Shown here piece after piece: positions 19,695 through 45,543 of a DNA stretch of 64,000 bases. Source of the stretch: Dehalococcoidia bacterium (GTDB taxonomy: Bacteria > Chloroflexota > Dehalococcoidia > Plut-88900); contig OZ240215.1 of assembly GCA_965197585.1 (NCBI GenBank), positions 1,408,001-1,472,000 on the forward strand, given 5' to 3'. The notes below the pieces were generated by a model. It saw only the letters and a list, made by a program, of their open reading frames with translations, was not told where the DNA came from and did not search any database. Every line of letters begins with the position of its first letter. Positions within the stretch are counted from its first letter, which is position 1. The position numbers and the translations under genes are program-made.

Positions 19695-19962
19695 TCGTGC
19701 ACCCCCCGTCGATCAAGTCCCCTTGGCCTGTTGTCCGCCGCCGGGCTCAGACCAGGCGACCCTACGGCACCCAGAATTGACCGCTTACCGTTGCTTCCTT
19801 CCGGACCTGGCGGGGTTCACAGTTTTCTGCCGCGTAGGACCCAATCTTCAGCGCCCGCCGAACGGGTACAGCGTCCGAAGGTCCAGGACCTCTAGGGGGA
19901 ATTCAGTCCCGCTTTAGCGGATTGCGGGTTCAGGGCACCGCTAGCTCCCCACCTAGCACGAC
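19695..19962 (-). ncRNA. ffs: Large (Alu-domain-containing) bacterial SRP RNA
   Basis: Minus strand reads CGTGCTAGGTGGGGAGCTAGCGGTGCCCTGAACCCGCAATCCGC...GTGAACCCCGCCAGGTCCGGAAGGAAGCAACGG...GTGCACG. It has the helix 8 motif, a Bacillus-type 5' Alu domain and paired termini. Confidence 0.95.
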
Positions 19963-20089
19963 CTGGACATATGTTATTTGACGCCCATTCCGGTGTCAAT
20001 TAAAAGACGGATATGTGACAGCGCGTGTCTCGGTAGCTGAGCGCCCCGCCAAAATGATCCCGTTCACATAGAGGGGTGACATATCCCCC

Positions 20090-20118
20090 TTGACTTTATA
20101 AGACAGGTGTTCTATTAT
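20090..20118 (+). promoter_or_regulatory. sigma70 promoter with LexA-like box (element copy 1)
   Basis: TTGACT-17-TATTAT; AGAC-AGGT-GTTC at 20101-20112 abuts the -10. Confidence 0.75.
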
Positions 20119-20124
20119 TGGGCC

Positions 20125-20875
20125 AGTCTAGACCCGACACTCACCTTAAGGAGGTAACCACAACCCAGGGAAGCCCACCCGGCCCCACCCGAGGACTCAA
20201 CGTCTAAGCCCATCCCAAAGGGCGGCCCACAAGCCGCCCCACGGCTCAAGCAAACGACGCCATCTCCTCATCCCCACCGGGTCCCGTGCACCCTTCCCTG
20301 ACCCCCAGGCGATGGAAAGACGCCCTGGTTCGCTATCGTTCCATGTGAACCCCCTCTAAGACGCTTCAGCCTCTTACAGGGAAAATCTCCCTTGGGAGTA
20401 ACCTGCTCTTTAGAGCGGAATTGCAGTCGGATAGGCCCGGCGCCGAGGTCCTCTCGGTGCCCCGACTGCTCAATAAAGCCGGGAGCCGGTGGTCCCTGCG
20501 CTCCGGGTCGCACCGGCAAACTTGGACACATTACACCTGCAAGAGGCTCACGCCGGACGCTGGACGAGCCTCCTTGCCGCCCTTATGCGGTGCAGCCAAC
20601 CCCCGGAGTCGGGCTCGGACCTGCTGGCCCTGTCGGTCCCTTCCCATGTCCAGCGTATACAGGGCCACAGGCCGCAGCAGCGGCAAAAGCGGGCCGGACG
20701 CCCTTGCCCCGGGGCGTCGGAGCACCCGAAGCACATGAACGGGGGCATCGTCCAGCAAGCGTCTTCCATCGTCAACCCAAAACCCAACAGACAGAACTGA
20801 AACCGAACCCCCACAATCGAAGATGCTGCAAGTCCGTCGTAGGCGGGGAACATCCTCCTCTGGAGGATCCGCCAC
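20125..20875 (+). ncRNA. Putative large structured ncRNA, family copy 1
   Basis: No credible ORF. 20148-20316 is homologous to 44176-44342. Long-range helix 20308-20323/20759-20773; many internal hairpins; AACTGAA at 20795; terminal hairpin 20842-20873. Confidence 0.6.
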
Positions 20876-21136
20876 TGGAGGACTGAAGAAAAGGCCAGTG
20901 TGTCACTAATCTGCCGAACGAGTACACTCAATTGAGCCGGAGTCCCATTTGTGATAACCTAGCGCCCGTCGGGGCTTGGAACCATTGGCCCGGGAAAGCG
21001 ACGTCAGACAAGCAATACTACGGTTATTTCCTCGCAATTCCTCCTCCAAGCGGACCTTACCCGACAGGCGAAAGCCAACTACAGCTGAATCCGGCGTTGC
21101 GCCAGGTTCAGACTCACATCATGATGGGGTAAGGCA

Positions 21137-22210
21137 TTGGCTAAGGCCGGAAGGCTAGCCGGTAGCGTCATAGGCGCAATAGTGGCCGCCCTGCTGGGGC
21201 TGGGCATCGGCCTTTCTCTTTCAGAAGCCGGCATATTCGAAGGCTGGAACACCTGGATAACCCTTGGCGCGAGCGTTCTGGGATTTGGGTTTGGACTAAT
21301 TGCCACCGCCCTTGTAATCATCCCTGGAGTGCAAAGGGCAGCCGGGAGCCTCTCGTCCCTTCGGCCGGAAGTTGCCTTCTCGGGGACCGTAGGTGCACTG
21401 GTCGGAGTAGTCCTCTCAGGCGTCTTGATCTACGCCTTTGCGGTGGCATCTCTTGCCTACCCCTGGAATGCCATAACCCCCGGCCTGCTGGTGCTCACAC
21501 TGGCTGGCCTCGGGGGCTGGGCCAGTGCATCCAGGGCCACACAGGTGATCTCCATGCTCGCCCGAGGCACTATCCCGGAAAGGGTCGCCGCCCCGGCATC
21601 CGTTAACGGGGCACAGAACGGGCGCTGCATCCTTGTCGACACGTCCGCGATCATCGATGGACGCATCGCCGAGATCACCCACACCGGTTTCGTAGACGGC
21701 GATCTTCTCATACCTCGATTCGTTCTGGAAGAACTCCAGTACGTCGCAGATTCCCCGGACAGCCTCAAGCGCAATAGAGGCCGCAGGGGTCTCGACGTCC
21801 TCAACCAACTCCAGAAAGACAGTAACGTGGAAGTCCAGATTACCGAGATCGACGTCCCCGACCAGGACGGCGTCGACAGCAAGCTCGTGAGCCTGGCAAA
21901 ACGCTCCGATTACTCACTCCTCACCACCGACTTCAACCTGAACAAGGTCGCCGAGCTTCAGGGCATCAGGGTTCTCAACATCAACGACCTTGCCAACTCC
22001 CTTAAACCAACGCTCATACCCGGTGAGGAGCTGAATCTCCACATCACCCAGGAGGGCAAGGAGGAGACCCAGGGAGTCGGGTTCCTGGACGACGGCACCA
22101 TGGTAGTCGTCGAGGGAGGTCACAAATACCTGAACTCCCAGCTGCCGGTGGTAATCACGCGGGTGCTGCAAACCTCGGCGGGCCGGATAATCTTCGCCCA
22201 CTTGAAATAG
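21137..22210 (+). CDS. PIN/TRAM domain membrane protein (YacL-like)
   Basis: LVDTSAIIDGRI, RGRRGLD, DFNLNKVA, GFLDDGTMVVVE and QTSAGRIIFA motifs; conserved position before ispDF-cysS. Confidence 0.92.
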   Translation: MAKAGRLAGSVIGAIVAALLGLGIGLSLSEAGIFEGWNTWITLGASVLGFGFGLIATALVIIPGVQRAAGSLSSLRPEVAFSGTVGALVGVVLSGVLIYAFAVASLAYPWNAITPGLLVLTLAGLGGWASASRATQVISMLARGTIPERVAAPASVNGAQNGRCILVDTSAIIDGRIAEITHTGFVDGDLLIPRFVLEELQYVADSPDSLKRNRGRRGLDVLNQLQKDSNVEVQITEIDVPDQDGVDSKLVSLAKRSDYSLLTTDFNLNKVAELQGIRVLNINDLANSLKPTLIPGEELNLHITQEGKEETQGVGFLDDGTMVVVEGGHKYLNSQLPVVITRVLQTSAGRIIFAHLK

Positions 22211-43730: not shown

Positions 43731-44090
43731 CACCATTCCGATGCCCCGCGAGGAACCTAGGGCATAAGCCCGCCACTCACCTATTTAATCCCCAACCCCA
43801 CCCCCGCCCCCGAGCCGGAATCCAGGGAGGGGCCGCTCACACTGAGCCTGTTGTAAGTCCGCTGAGGCGGACCGAAGGGTCGAGCGGGGGCCACCCCACA
43901 CTGCCATCCCCCATCCGTCTTTCCTACGGAGGCAGGTCGCAGATGCGCCAAGGCGTGAACCCATCCCCCCTGAAGGCGCACCCCCGCCGAGCCGGGACTC
44001 CCTTCCCCAGGGGCTGTGGGGCCGCTCACCCTGAGGCACTCGAAGGGTCGAGCGGGAGGCCCCACACTTGCCGACCCGTCGCGCCTTCCC
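43731..44090. repeat. Mosaic of REP-like palindromic repeats (cluster 2)
   Basis: CATTCCGATGCCCCGCGAGGAACCTAG at 43734; GGGCCGCTCAC.CTGAG...CGAAGGGTCGAGCGG at about 43830-43886 and 44019-44055. Confidence 0.8.
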
Positions 44091-44111
44091 CCCAAAAGTG
44101 ACACGAACCCC

Positions 44112-44141
44112 TTGACCTAATCAGGACATCTGTACTATTAT
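44112..44141 (+). promoter_or_regulatory. sigma70 promoter with LexA-like box (element copy 3)
   Basis: TTGACC-18-TATTAT; GGAC-ATCT-GTAC at 44124-44135. Confidence 0.75.
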
Positions 44142-44147
44142 CCCCCT

Positions 44148-44750
44148 TGAATGGCCAATCACACACCCTAAACCCAAGGAGGAACACACAACCCAGGGGG
44201 AACACCAGCCCCGGCCCCGAGGACTCAACGCCTAAGCCCATCCCAACGGCCCTCGCGCAGGCCCGCGGCACAAGCGAAAGTCGCCATCTCCTCATCCCAC
44301 CGGGTCCCGTGTCCTCTTCCCTGACCCCCATCAGGCGATGGATGGTCCACAATTTTAAGCGGCACGCTCCCCTCAAAGGAGCCCTGCCCAAATGAGCCCC
44401 GCTCACGCCGGGCCAAACACCTCGGGCCTTTACGCCCTTGGAAACATCTCCCCCGTCGTTCCCTTCGGAGACCCCCATACAACCAGCGACGGCAGCGAGA
44501 AAACGTGCTCCCCACCCCTCCGAGTGGGTCAGCCAAAACTGGTGGTAGAGATGCCCTCAAGCGAGAACCCCTCGCTTGTCTACCACGTGATAACAGAAGC
44601 ACGGGGCTGAACCAGGCTGGCCTCCCGCCCCCTGAATCCGAGTCCCGGACCTTCCATCGCCTGCCCTCCGTCACCAAGTAACAAAGTGAAAACGAAATCC
44701 CAACTGAATACACAATCCCTGAAGGGAAGACCCGCCGGTCTCCCTGGGAT
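44148..44750 (+). ncRNA. Putative large structured ncRNA, family copy 3
   Basis: Leader homologous to copy 1; 16/17-bp long-range helix 44332-44348/44647-44663; AACTGAA at 44702; terminal hairpin 44715-44750. Confidence 0.6.
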
Positions 44751-44805
44751 GGCAGCACCGCAATTTGTAACCCCCCGAGACGGGGCACTATAATTGCAAC
44801 CTGCC

Positions 44806-45543
44806 ATGCCGGAACCCAAGACTCGCGCCTCCATCTTCATAACCTGCCTCGTTGACCAGTTCTATCCCCAGGTAGGCGAGGCTATGGTAAAGGTACTGCG
44901 GGACCAGGGCGTGCAGCTTTCCTTCCCTCAAGCCCAGACCTGCTGCGGCCAGCCCGCTTTTAACGCGGGTTTCCAGTCCGAGGCCCGAGACCTCGCCAAA
45001 CGCTTCATCTCGATCTTCGAAGGCGACGACTATATCGTGGCCCCTTCCGGTTCATGCACTTCAATGGTCCGGGTCTACTATCCCGACCTCTTCAAAGACG
45101 ACCCCGAGATGCTCGAAAAGGCCCGCAGCCTCGGGGCCCGTACTTATGAGTTCTCCGAGTTTCTCGTTAAGGTTCTCGGCGTCGAGGATGTAAATGCAAC
45201 CCATAATGGCTCGGTGACCTACCACCCTTCCTGCCATCTTTTGAGAGAGCTCAAAGTCCGTAACGAGCCAACGCAGCTTCTAAGTAATGTGAAGAGAATA
45301 GAAATCAAGGACCTCCCCGATGCCGAACAGTGCTGCGGGTTCGGAGGCTCCTTTGCAGTCAAGTATCCTCACATATCGGGCTCCATTCTCCAACGCAAGC
45401 TCGACTGCATCCGTAATTCGGGCGCCGACACCCTCGTCGCCAATGATGCCGGGTGCCTCATGCAGATGGCGGGTGGACTGAAACGCCAAAATATCCCCGT
45501 CCAGGCCCGACACATCGCCGAGATTCTCGCCTCCAGGGAATAG
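44806..45543 (+). CDS. lutA: L-lactate utilization protein LutA (CCG domains)
   Basis: FITCLVD, QTCCGQPAFNAG, PSGSC, YHPSCH and CCGFGG motifs. Confidence 0.92.
   Translation: MPEPKTRASIFITCLVDQFYPQVGEAMVKVLRDQGVQLSFPQAQTCCGQPAFNAGFQSEARDLAKRFISIFEGDDYIVAPSGSCTSMVRVYYPDLFKDDPEMLEKARSLGARTYEFSEFLVKVLGVEDVNATHNGSVTYHPSCHLLRELKVRNEPTQLLSNVKRIEIKDLPDAEQCCGFGGSFAVKYPHISGSILQRKLDCIRNSGADTLVANDAGCLMQMAGGLKRQNIPVQARHIAEILASRE

What the first reader, a model, noticed from the sequence alone, without database searches (positions are those of the whole stretch)
20308..20773. Copy 1: long-range stem enclosing a 435-nt multibranch domain
GGCGATGGAAAGACGC (20308-20323) pairs with GCGTCTTCCATCGTC (20759-20773). 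Nested helices inside: 20337-20347/20732-20741, 20423-20430/20462-20469 (capped by 20439-20447/20453-20461), 20485-20491/20511-20517, 20539-20549/20566-20577, 20625-20633/20659-20667 and 20697-20703/20712-20718. These are mutually compatible, as expected of a folded RNA. The element lies divergently from the SRP RNA gene and upstream of yacL-ispDF-cysS.
Basis: seen in the sequence. Interest (0 to 1): 0.75.

Follow-up and report, generated by a model that had tools for sequence, protein, structure and literature searches.

The report
Mobile structured RNA gene beside promoters
The stem-enclosed fold is real and is the core of a roughly 700-base non-coding RNA gene carried by an 872-bp jumping element that is present in dozens of copies per genome and lands exactly in front of host promoters.

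Summary
The eight helices exist as described. The region folds better than shuffles, z -5.5. The long-range stem is the best-supported part. GGCGATGGA...TCCATCGCC encloses a 325-553-nt domain in 56 of 57 copies in this genome, and its inner base pairs differ between subfamilies in a matching way.

The region is part of a larger unit, an 872-bp insertion at window 20055-20926. This unit has:
- imperfect TG...CA terminal inverted repeats and 5-bp target duplications;
- empty orthologous sites in three sister genomes;
- its own promoter, seen in 57 of 57 copies, and an AAGGAGG motif, also 57 of 57;
- no conserved ORF and no Rfam match.

Copies sit 5 bp upstream of host sigma-70-type promoters. 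A -10-like hexamer lies at the right spacing after 52 of 61 right ends, against 1.8% at random positions.

The family was found only in this uncultured Dehalococcoidia genus. No reverse transcriptase was found, and no autonomous partner with the same ends.

Best reading: a non-autonomous DNA transposon whose cargo is a selected, structured RNA gene. The RNA's function is unknown.

The parts
20050..20054 (.). Left copy of the 5-bp target duplication (CAAAA)
   Evidence: Empty sites in G002 and G003 read ...CCCCCAAAA|TTGAGCC. The right copy here is CTCAA, a 3 of 5 match. Of 35 other complete elements, 19 have perfect 5-bp duplications.
20055..20089 (+). Left terminal inverted repeat (TGATCCCGTTCACATAGAGGGGTGACA...)
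   Evidence: It shares the blocks TG, CGTTC and GTGACA with the reverse complement of the right end. The 19-mer is found 16 times in G000 and in 4 other genomes of the genus. The reversed control pattern is found 0 times.
20090..20118 (+). The element's own sigma-70-type promoter: TTGACT, 17 nt, TATTAT
   Evidence: Matches 10 of 12 consensus positions. TTGAY-N-TANNNT is present in 57 of 57 copies and conserved in the alignment.
20125..20307 (+). Conserved 5' module of the RNA. The start at about 20125 is inferred from the promoter. It includes AAGGAGG at 20148-20154.
   Evidence: Blocks that are nearly invariant in 56 copies: CCCGAGGACTCAACG, AGCCCATCCCAA, CGCCATCTCCTC, CAGGCGATGGAAG. AAGGAGG is present in 57 of 57 copies. 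The covariance model R1 built from this module finds the genus only.
20308..20323 (+). 5' strand of the closing stem (GGCGATGGAAAGACGC)
20324..20758 (+). Multibranched central domain, which varies between subfamilies
   Evidence: Domain length is 325-553 nt. There are 7 subfamilies and 5 singletons. Shared motifs: CAGCCNA[AC] in 37 of 56 domains (shuffles 5.0) and CCGAG-N3-8-CTCGG in 28 of 56 (shuffles 0.39).
20759..20773 (+). 3' strand of the closing stem (GCGTCTTCCATCGTC)
20774..20894 (+). C/A-rich tail, a hairpin (20853-20882 region) and GGAGGACTGAAG. The 3' end of the RNA is not mapped.
   Evidence: Conserved in roughly half of the copies. The hairpin shows matching changes in the six-copy alignment. 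Inverted repeat I7. No terminator-like site was found.
20895..20926 (+). Right terminal inverted repeat (...GTGTCACTAATCTGCCGAACGAGTACA)
   Evidence: There are 22 matches in G000 at up to 3 mismatches, and 0 for the reversed control.
20927..20931 (.). Right copy of the target duplication (CTCAA)
20932..20960 (+). Host promoter of the PIN(yacL-like)-ispD-ispF-cysS genes, abutted by the insertion: TTGAGC, 17 nt, TAACCT
   Evidence: Present without the element at the empty sites of G002, G003 and G001. The same geometry is seen at 52 of 61 right ends.
44112..44661 (+). Second copy in the window, of a different subfamily and without the left inverted repeat. Promoter TTGACC at 44112-44117, AAGGAGG at 44176-44182, closing stem 44334-44348 / 44647-44661.
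   Evidence: (L174, 328-nt domain).

Best explanation
The stem and its 435-nt domain are the core of a non-coding RNA gene of roughly 650-750 nt. The gene is carried by an 872-bp non-autonomous DNA transposon at window 20055-20926.

Shown:
- The element has imperfect TG...CA terminal inverted repeats and makes 5-bp target duplications.
- It is absent from the orthologous site in three sister genomes.
- It is one of 57 copies here, with dozens in each of eight congeneric genomes.
- Copies lie in one orientation with their right end 5 bp upstream of the -35 hexamer of a host sigma-70-type promoter.
- Every copy keeps its own sigma-70-type promoter, an AAGGAGG motif near the predicted 5' end, and a conserved 5' module of about 190 nt.
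- All but one copy keep the closing stem GGCGAUGGAA.../...UUCCAUCGCC around a branched domain. That domain has split into at least 7 subfamilies but retains shared motifs.

Inferred:
- The element is moved by a DDE (rve-type) transposase supplied in trans. I did not identify it.
- The RNA is transcribed from the internal promoter and is under selection. It is the cargo that the element propagates, a selfish mobile RNA gene comparable to ssr9 riding on ISPpu9.
- The AAGGAGG motif may act as a 5' stabiliser and not as a translation start. This idea rests on recalled Bacillus literature.
- What the RNA does in the cell is not known.
For: Family and architecture:
- 57 copies share the 5' module, with a uniform layout and no long variant.
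- 56 of 57 have both closing-stem 9-mers.
- The inner stem pairs better with its own partner than with partners from other subfamilies: mean -13.9 against -9.5 kcal/mol, from 56 cognate and 2716 non-cognate pairs. The three main pair classes are GACGCC/GGCGTC, GGTCC/GGACC and GGTTCCCGG/CCGGGAACC.
- Conservation is uneven. Blocks are near-invariant next to a core that cannot be aligned between subfamilies.
- Shared domain motifs lie far above shuffle expectation.
- Promoter in 57 of 57 copies and AAGGAGG in 57 of 57.

Not coding:
- Indels of 1 nt and no ORF shared by six close copies.
- tblastx hits between subfamilies fall in all frames and on both strands.
- No Pfam family for the two longest ORFs.

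Mobility:
- Empty sites in G002, G003 and G001; filled sites in G000 and G005.
- Perfect 5-bp duplications in 19 of 35 complete elements, and at least 4 of 5 matching bases in 27 of 35. Some of these are orthologous copies and so not independent.

Targeting:
- Of 61 distinct right ends, 39 are followed after 5 bp by a -35-like hexamer, against 1.2% of 20,000 random positions.
- 52 of the 61 have TANNNT 16-18 nt further on, against 1.8% at random.

Other:
- No RVT_1 match in the genome, and 29 rve matches.
- Contigs from two RNA libraries cover parts of the element, including pieces with no differences (20667-20754, 20202-20287).
Against: - No autonomous element with these ends was found in any of the nine genomes (and my pairing of the coordinates). 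The transposase is therefore unnamed.
- About two thirds of the copies lack a recognisable left repeat.
- Within the window's own subfamily covariation is modest.
- The G-U excess on the + strand is weak: 79 G-U cells against 57 A-C cells.
- The fold z-score is as good on the reverse strand.
- The MFE fold of the whole putative transcript drops the closing stem.
- Transcription is not demonstrated. The RNA evidence is low-depth assembled contigs from libraries that may contain DNA, without strand information.
- Conserved blocks in the 5' module could be DNA-level protein sites and not RNA features.
- Conservation could reflect selection on master copies for transposition and not any cellular role of the RNA.
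Confidence: 0.6

Rival explanations
1. Ordinary MITE-like repeat. The element is a decaying non-autonomous insertion sequence. The predicted fold is a by-product of GC-rich palindromic DNA, and the conserved blocks are DNA-level sites such as transposase or host-factor binding sites. No functional RNA is made.
For: - Inverted-repeat ends, target duplications and the lack of any ORF fit a MITE.
- The fold z-score is equal on both strands.
- The G-U asymmetry is weak.
- Compensatory changes within the subfamily are few.
- Other repeat modules and hairpins abound in this genome.
Against: - The promoter is intact in 57 of 57 copies although the cores have diverged beyond alignment.
- The closing stem is kept in 56 of 57 copies with matching inner-stem changes between subfamilies.
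- Shared motifs sit at similar relative positions in 10 of 12 clusters.
- RNA-library contigs cover parts of the element.
- At 872 bp the element is much larger than the MITEs I recall, which are mostly under about 500 bp. That size range is recalled and was not seen in a call.
Confidence: 0.15
2. Portable promoter and leader. The element's role is in cis: transcription from its strong promoter reads through the structured region into the downstream host gene, changing that gene's expression. This does not exclude the best explanation.
For: - Right ends abut host promoters in a fixed, co-directional orientation.
- No terminator-like site lies at the 3' end.
- By a crude ORF call, the first ORF downstream is on the same strand in 38 of 57 copies.
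- MITEs with outward promoters are known (Correia and others; review PMC10969869, passages seen).
Against: - The host promoter is left intact, so the host gene needs no new promoter.
- A leader of 650 nt or more with a conserved closing stem and 5' module is more than a promoter needs.
- 19 of 57 copies have an opposite-strand ORF next by the same crude call.
Confidence: 0.15
3. RNA cofactor of transposition. The RNA is needed by the element's transposase, for example to assemble the transposition complex or to direct it to promoter DNA or promoter-bound RNA polymerase. It would then be comparable in principle to IS110 bridge RNAs or IS200/605 guide RNAs.
For: - Selection for an expressed structured RNA inside a transposon.
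- Unusually exact, oriented targeting 5 bp upstream of the -35 hexamer.
- A separate IS (here called ISx, with a 402-aa rve transposase) uses the same geometry at this RNA gene's own promoter in three genomes.
Against: - I found no segment of the RNA that is conserved and complementary to the TTGAC target (reading).
- ISx has different ends, moves without the RNA in 3 of 10 intact G005 copies, and is not found in six of nine genomes.
- Relatives of its transposase in other genera are compact and lack the RNA: 0 of 29 loci match model R1.
- DDE transposases are not known to need RNA (recalled).
Confidence: 0.1
4. Small protein gene. AAGGAGG is a true ribosome-binding site and the element encodes a peptide or small protein.
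For: AAGGAGG is present in 57 of 57 copies. ORFs of 100-190 codons exist in single copies.
Against: - No ATG, GTG or TTG lies within normal spacing after AAGGAGG.
- Indels in the conserved module are 1 nt long.
- ORFs differ in frame and position among six close copies.
- Similarity between subfamilies shows no frame preference.
- No Pfam match.
Confidence: 0.02

Closest known systems
MITEs / non-autonomous IS derivatives that carry promoters (Correia, MITEAba12, QMITE1; review PMC10969869, passages read)
   Same: Terminal inverted repeats, target duplications, no transposase, many intergenic copies, and an internal sigma-70-type promoter.
   Different: - About 870 bp, not the tens to a few hundred bp that I recall for MITEs (recalled).
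- The interior is a large RNA domain that looks selected and has diverged into subfamilies.
- No partner IS with the same ends was found.
- Insertion is phased to 5 bp upstream of promoter -35 hexamers.
ISPpu9 / ssr9 of Pseudomonas putida (PMC12288879, abstract read)
   Same: A small-RNA gene exists both next to an IS transposase gene and as free-standing copies. The authors read it as a selfish module that uses the IS transposase. Ssr9 was not needed for transposition.
   Different: - ISPpu9 is an IS110-family element that moves through circles into REP sequences. This element has inverted-repeat ends and 5-bp duplications and targets promoters.
- The RNA here is several times larger, and there are 57 copies against 8.
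IS481/IS3-type rve (DDE) insertion sequences
   Same: TG...CA ends and short target duplications, which I recall as typical of these families. Two rve IS types in this genus also make 5-bp duplications. One, a 1056-bp IS, has ends that match the element's right end at 19 of 32 positions by my hand alignment of the ends printed.
   Different: - The element encodes no transposase.
- The 1056-bp IS targets REP-like hairpins and is absent from G005, which holds 14 left ends of the element.
- ISx shares the target geometry but not the ends.
Transposon-encoded structured RNAs that serve the element (IS200/605 guide RNAs, IS110 bridge RNAs)
   Same: A structured non-coding RNA is encoded inside a mobile element and conserved with it.
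   Different: Those RNAs lie beside their nuclease or recombinase gene and carry guide segments. Here no protein gene is linked, no guide segment was found, and no Rfam family, HEARO and group II intron models included, matches even at E up to 10 in the intergenic region 19960-21140. What I say about those systems is recalled, apart from an abstract start listed.
Large bacterial ncRNAs of unknown function (OLE, GOLLD, ROOL, raiA)
   Same: Size class (several hundred nt), a multibranched fold and conserved single-stranded motifs.
   Different: No Rfam match. Those classes are single-copy or low-copy genes as I recall. This one is multicopy, mobile and confined to one genus in the genomes searched.
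Promoter-targeting retrotransposons of eukaryotes (Ty3, Ty1; recalled)
   Same: Integration at a fixed short distance upstream of transcription start sites, sparing genes.
   Different: Those are retroelements directed by polymerase III factors. This is a bacterial DNA element, and how it selects its target is unknown.

Membership tests
MITE / non-autonomous DNA transposon | Terminal inverted repeats | tested here: met
   The left end TGATCCCGTTC-N10-GTGACA matches the reverse complement of the right end, TGTACTCGTTC-N9-GTGACA. The repeats are imperfect. A left repeat is recognisable in only 16 G000 places, which include one solo end and one composite.
MITE / non-autonomous DNA transposon | Target-site duplication, and presence/absence polymorphism at orthologous sites | tested here: met
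   Perfect 5-bp duplication in 19 of 35 elements and at least 4 of 5 matching bases in 27 of 35. Empty sites in G002, G003 and G001 against filled sites in G000 and G005.
MITE / non-autonomous DNA transposon | No transposase gene inside | tested here: met
   No conserved ORF and no Pfam match.
MITE / non-autonomous DNA transposon | Derivation from an autonomous IS with the same ends | tested here: not met
   No longer element with these ends was found in G000 or in the eight sister genomes (coordinates, paired by hand). The only longer forms are 2.1-kb composites that hold ISx, which has its own, different ends.
MITE / non-autonomous DNA transposon | Miniature size | tested here: not met
   The element is 872 bp here, and 699-1029 bp among the 35 complete elements. 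The usual size limit is recalled and not taken from a call.
Any Rfam 15 family (including group II introns, HEARO, OLE, GOLLD, ROOL, 6S) | Covariance-model match | tested here: not met
   In the window only SRP RNA and one tRNA reach gathering scores. In 19960-21140 nothing scores above 21.6 bits at E up to 10. Eleven other copies give 0 matches at E up to 1.
Retroelement (group II intron, retron, SINE-like) | A reverse transcriptase in the genome, and ends created by reverse transcription | tested here: not met
   No RVT_1 match in G000, which is 91.9% complete by marker genes. The promoter lies inside the element and is copied with it. Inverted-repeat ends with 5-bp duplications also speak against this.
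Selfish RNA-gene module riding on an IS (ISPpu9/ssr9 type) | The RNA gene is found both linked to a transposase gene and free-standing, and is mobilised by that transposase | tested here: inconclusive
   Linked (with ISx) and free forms both exist. However, ISx has different ends and looks like an insertion into the RNA gene's promoter region. Mobilisation cannot be tested with these tools.

The most novel reading that the evidence does not exclude
This is a bacterial DNA transposon family that reads promoters. It integrates, in one orientation, exactly 5 bp upstream of the -35 hexamer of sigma-70 promoters. Its large structured RNA, made from a promoter placed in the same geometry next to its own left end, is part of that mechanism, for example by tethering the transposition complex to promoter-bound RNA polymerase. 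That would make it an RNA-assisted, promoter-directed DDE transposition system.
Probability: 0.12. Interest if true: 0.92.

Novelty: new variant of a known kind. Interest (0 to 1): 0.7.

Why it matters
If the RNA is functional, this is a new large structured RNA class of roughly 700 nt. It has an unusual life style, being multicopy, mobile and diversified into subfamilies within one uncultured genus.

The exact placement of the copies 5 bp upstream of promoter -35 hexamers also matters on its own. It would be a bacterial case of promoter-directed safe-haven integration. I found no description of this in the listings of my searches.

Both points can be tested with a mini-element and candidate transposases in a laboratory host. 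The element also explains a 1.2-kb gap between genes that annotation would leave blank. It accounts for about 45 kb of this genome (57 copies of about 0.8 kb, my arithmetic).

Tried and rejected
Tests that gave no usable signal:
- Pseudoknot between the 5' module and the domain. Inverted repeat I5 (20274-86/20480-92) suggested one. Duplex energies of each copy's 5' segment with its own domain were no better than with domains of other subfamilies. The script hit the 60-s limit after about 45 of 56 copies. No support.
- Strand from wobble pairs.
- Orientation relative to replication. Only 21 of 57 copies are co-oriented with the arms inferred from GC skew. No pattern.
- Downstream gene orientation. 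A crude ORF and GC3 call gave 38 same-strand and 19 opposite-strand. Used only as a rough figure.

Parts of the stretch without RNA cover:
- No contig of the two RNA libraries lay on 19966-20148 or on 20820-21124, although the two other runs cover these bins.
- Both RNA runs belong to one study and are assembled contigs, so this is no evidence for transcript ends.

Search for an autonomous partner:
- A regex and a blastn-short scan of G000 and pattern scans of the genus found only the known copies, one solo left end upstream of groES, one truncated copy and the ISx composites.
- ISx as the autonomous form was considered and rejected. It has its own ends with GGTTACCG repeats and occurs without the RNA.
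- Flanks of ISx relatives in other genera could not be read for promoter targeting, because the borders from BLAST were too rough.

Searches elsewhere:
- A 17-mer of the left end found 84 stretches in metagenome contigs, of which 80 loci were listed. None of those 80 matched model R1, so I treat them as chance matches.
- Plasmid and phage collections gave no match.

Literature: five searches. I saw listings and abstract starts only, except one full abstract (PMC12288879) and passages of one review (PMC10969869). Nothing on this element or on -35-phased insertion appeared in those listings. Supplementary files were not consulted.

Calls not used: structure prediction, fold search, complex prediction and the protein atlas.
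Full report
**1. The observation**

The region lies in a 1175-nt gap between the SRP RNA gene (19695-19961, minus strand, 187 bits) and a PIN-domain ORF at 21137. That ORF is followed by ispD, ispF and cysS.

- The stretch 20308-20773 folds to -225.6 kcal/mol, against -188.7 +/- 6.7 for 100 dinucleotide shuffles. This gives z = -5.48.
- The reverse strand gives z = -5.33, so energy alone does not say which strand matters.
- In a 766-nt putative transcript (z = -5.79, 20 shuffles) the long-range stem appears in the centroid structure but not in the MFE structure.

**2. Comparative support within the subfamily**

A search of the genus with 20300-20790 found relatives in 7 of 9 genomes. I aligned the 24 that cover nearly the whole query, out of 30 loci fetched.
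- Nine pairs show changes on both sides. The 21 doubly changed cells exceed all 500 shuffles.
- The covariation score was reached by 89 of 500 shuffles and the count of pair types by 500 of 500. The within-subfamily signal is therefore modest.
- The structure was derived from one of the aligned sequences, which favours it.
- The outer stem is 98.2% paired.
- RNAalifold keeps the outer stem and several hairpins and re-pairs other parts.

**3. A large family**

The 5' flank of the stem (window about 20142-20330) has 57 copies in this 3.43-Mb genome. One more of these lies in the window, at about 44112-44661.

All copies share one layout:
- a promoter;
- a conserved 5' module of about 190 nt;
- a core that varies in sequence but not much in size;
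- in about half of them, a conserved 3' module.

No copy has a long insert apart from the ISx composites described in section 7.

Conservation across the copies:
- Both closing-stem 9-mers (GGCGATGGA and TCCATCGCC, up to 1 mismatch each) are present in 56 of 57 copies. They enclose 325-553 nt.
- The cores fall into seven subfamilies of 12, 10, 7, 6, 6, 5 and 5 members, plus five singletons.
- Inside the invariant 9 bp the stem continues with different but matching sequences in different subfamilies. Cognate inner strands pair at a mean of -13.9 kcal/mol, and non-cognate strands from other subfamilies at -9.5.
- The cores are not unrelated. CAGCCNA[AC] occurs in 37 of 56 domains, in 10 of 12 clusters and at similar relative positions, against 5.0 in shuffles. 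A CCGAG-loop-CTCGG hairpin occurs in 28 of 56, against 0.39.
- Each subfamily's consensus folds into a multibranched domain closed by the same stem.
- The promoter (TTGAY, spacer, TANNNT) and AAGGAGG are each present in 57 of 57 copies. For this copy the scan gives TTGACT-17-TATTAT at 20090-20118.

**4. Not coding, not a known RNA**

- Six close copies differ by 1-nt indels and share no ORF in position or frame.
- tblastx similarity between subfamilies appears in all frames and on both strands and mirrors residual nucleotide similarity.
- The two longest ORFs have no Pfam family.
- No start codon follows AAGGAGG at normal spacing.
- Rfam gives nothing for the window region, even at E up to 10, nor for 11 further copies at E up to 1.

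**5. It is a transposable element**

About 16 places in G000 carry the left end TGATCCCGTTCACATAGAG, and 22 carry the right end ...GTGTCAC-N13-GAACGAGTACA. The two ends are imperfect inverted repeats (TG, CGTTC, GTGACA blocks).

Among 35 distinct complete elements in the loci I held, 19 have perfect 5-bp flanking duplications and 27 match in at least 4 of 5 positions. Some of these are orthologous copies in different genomes.

At the SRP/PIN-gene locus the element is present in G000 and G005. In G002, G003 and G001 the flanks instead join as ...CCCCCAAAA|TTGAGCC.... This fixes the element here at 20055-20926.

**6. Where it lands**

I collected 61 distinct right ends.
- In 39 of them, the 5 bp after the end are followed by a -35-like hexamer. 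The rate at 20,000 random genome positions is 1.2%.
- In 52 of them, a TANNNT hexamer follows 16-18 nt later. The random rate is 1.8%.

The promoters differ in sequence from copy to copy. The one at this locus exists at the empty sites too. They are therefore host promoters and not part of the element. The phasing is too exact to be explained by survival of harmless insertions alone. That last step is my inference.

**7. Who moves it**

The genome has no RVT_1 match and 29 rve matches.

ISx is a 1.33-kb IS with a 402-aa rve transposase.
- Pfam gives rve at 36 bits. NCBIfam gives IS481 at 50 bits, far below its cut-off.
- It sits exactly between ...ACCCCC and the TTGAC of the RNA gene's promoter in G000, G001 and G005.
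- In 7 of the 10 intact G005 copies, and in the one broken copy, the similarity to the G000 locus runs on into the RNA 5' module.
- ISx has its own ends with GGTTACCG repeats. It is not found at E up to 1e-20 in six of the nine genomes.
- Relatives of its transposase occur in 50 of 401 Chloroflexota genomes sampled. They are compact, 1.3-1.7 kb where two copies allowed me to measure. They lack the RNA module: 0 of 29 loci match model R1.

I read ISx as a second element that uses the same landing geometry, and not as the autonomous form of this one.

A second candidate is a 1056-bp IS481-like IS.
- It has a 329-aa ORF and about 16 copies.
- It has TGT...ACA ends that match the element's right end at 19 of 32 positions, by my hand alignment of the ends printed.
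- It makes 5-bp duplications but targets REP-like hairpins.
- It is absent from G005.

No element with the RNA element's own ends carries a transposase in any of the nine genomes.

**8. Distribution**

- BLAST found the 5' module in 8 of 8 sister genomes and in 0 of 32 other genera of the class sample.
- Covariance model R1 found it in 5 of 5 sister genomes sampled and otherwise gave one marginal hit (22 bits) among 151 class genomes.
- Record titles of matching public contigs read 'MAG: Dehalococcoidia bacterium'.
- Plasmid, phage and metagenome-contig searches were negative.

**9. Expression**

- Twenty public runs hold parts of the element. Two of them are RNA libraries labelled sponge metagenome, and both come from one study.
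- When laid on the window, their contigs cover parts of the element at low depth. Some pieces have no differences (20667-20754, 20202-20287), as does one piece on the neighbouring PIN gene. Cover on the SRP RNA is very deep.
- These are assembled contigs without strand information, from libraries that may hold DNA. They show presence in an RNA library, not a defined transcript.

**10. Reading**

Shown: a mobile, promoter-targeting, non-coding element whose interior keeps a promoter, a sequence-conserved 5' module and a stem-closed branched domain, despite deep divergence between subfamilies.

Inferred: the interior is an expressed RNA gene under selection, moved by a DDE transposase acting in trans. 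The closest analogue in print is the ssr9 module of ISPpu9 (PMC12288879, abstract seen).

The uneven conservation argues against neutral decay of a dead repeat. It cannot tell whether selection acts through the host or through the element's own spread. The cis reading (portable promoter and leader) and the RNA-cofactor reading remain open.

I rate the element as a new variant of a known kind. It has two features I did not find described: the large, apparently selected RNA cargo and the -35-phased integration.

Noticed in passing
window 44112-44661 (flanks seen from 43900 to 44960): A second copy of the RNA element, of another subfamily (328-nt domain) and without the left inverted repeat. A TATAAT-bearing promoter-like site and an ATG at about 44807 follow its 3' end.
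   Followed up: partly
G000:C1:659304-661379 (L153); G005 loci L226, L228-L236; G001 locus L227: ISx, a 1.33-kb IS with a 402-aa rve transposase, is inserted at the same spot, ...ACCCCC|ISx|...TTGAC, directly upstream of the -35 of the RNA gene's promoter, in three genomes. G005 holds 10 intact copies at 99% protein identity. ISx therefore looks site-specific for this promoter.
   Followed up: partly
G000:C1:3404961-3404998 (L154): A solo left inverted repeat of the element directly abuts the groES promoter (TTGCGA-17-TAAAAT), which is followed by a CIRCE-like inverted repeat (TTAGCACTC-N9-GAGTGCTAA). It may be a remnant of an element lost by deletion.
   Followed up: no
G005:C1:1879625-1880495 (L144, L120) against window 20055-20926: The orthologous copy in G005 is only about 85% identical in the domain, while the adjacent PIN gene region is 99% identical. 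The window copy's closest G005 relative (93%) lies at another locus. This suggests exchange or conversion between copies.
   Followed up: no
G000, about 16 places, e.g. C1:1679025-1680080 (L276): A 1056-bp IS481-like IS (329-aa ORF, TGT...ACA ends) is inserted in REP-like hairpins GTCATTCC...GGAATGAC with a GGAAT duplication. Several copies lie just upstream of RNA elements.
   Followed up: partly
Upstream of 15 G000 copies, e.g. L175 and L186: Copies without the left repeat are preceded by a shared array of 230-300 nt of small repeats. The array holds a GTCATTCCCGA...TCGGGAATCC hairpin, a long perfect hairpin followed by a T-rich run (terminator-like, with matching changes between copies) and a CCCCCTCTCCC...GGGAGAGGGGG hairpin.
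   Followed up: no
G000:C1:about 3315900-3316207 (L155): A truncated copy: only the 3' part of a domain, the closing-stem 3' strand, the tail and the right repeat, followed by CTCCC and TTGACG.
   Followed up: no
window 19971-19999 (minus strand): A promoter-like site TTGACA-17-TAACAT reads into the SRP RNA gene. The element's insertion point is about 50 nt from it, between two divergent promoters.
   Followed up: no
L263, L270, L271 (G198) and L258, L273 (G252): Relatives of ISx in two other Chloroflexota genomes are about 1.7 kb long, with 450-550 nt of extra sequence beyond the 3' end of the transposase gene. I did not examine this sequence.
   Followed up: no
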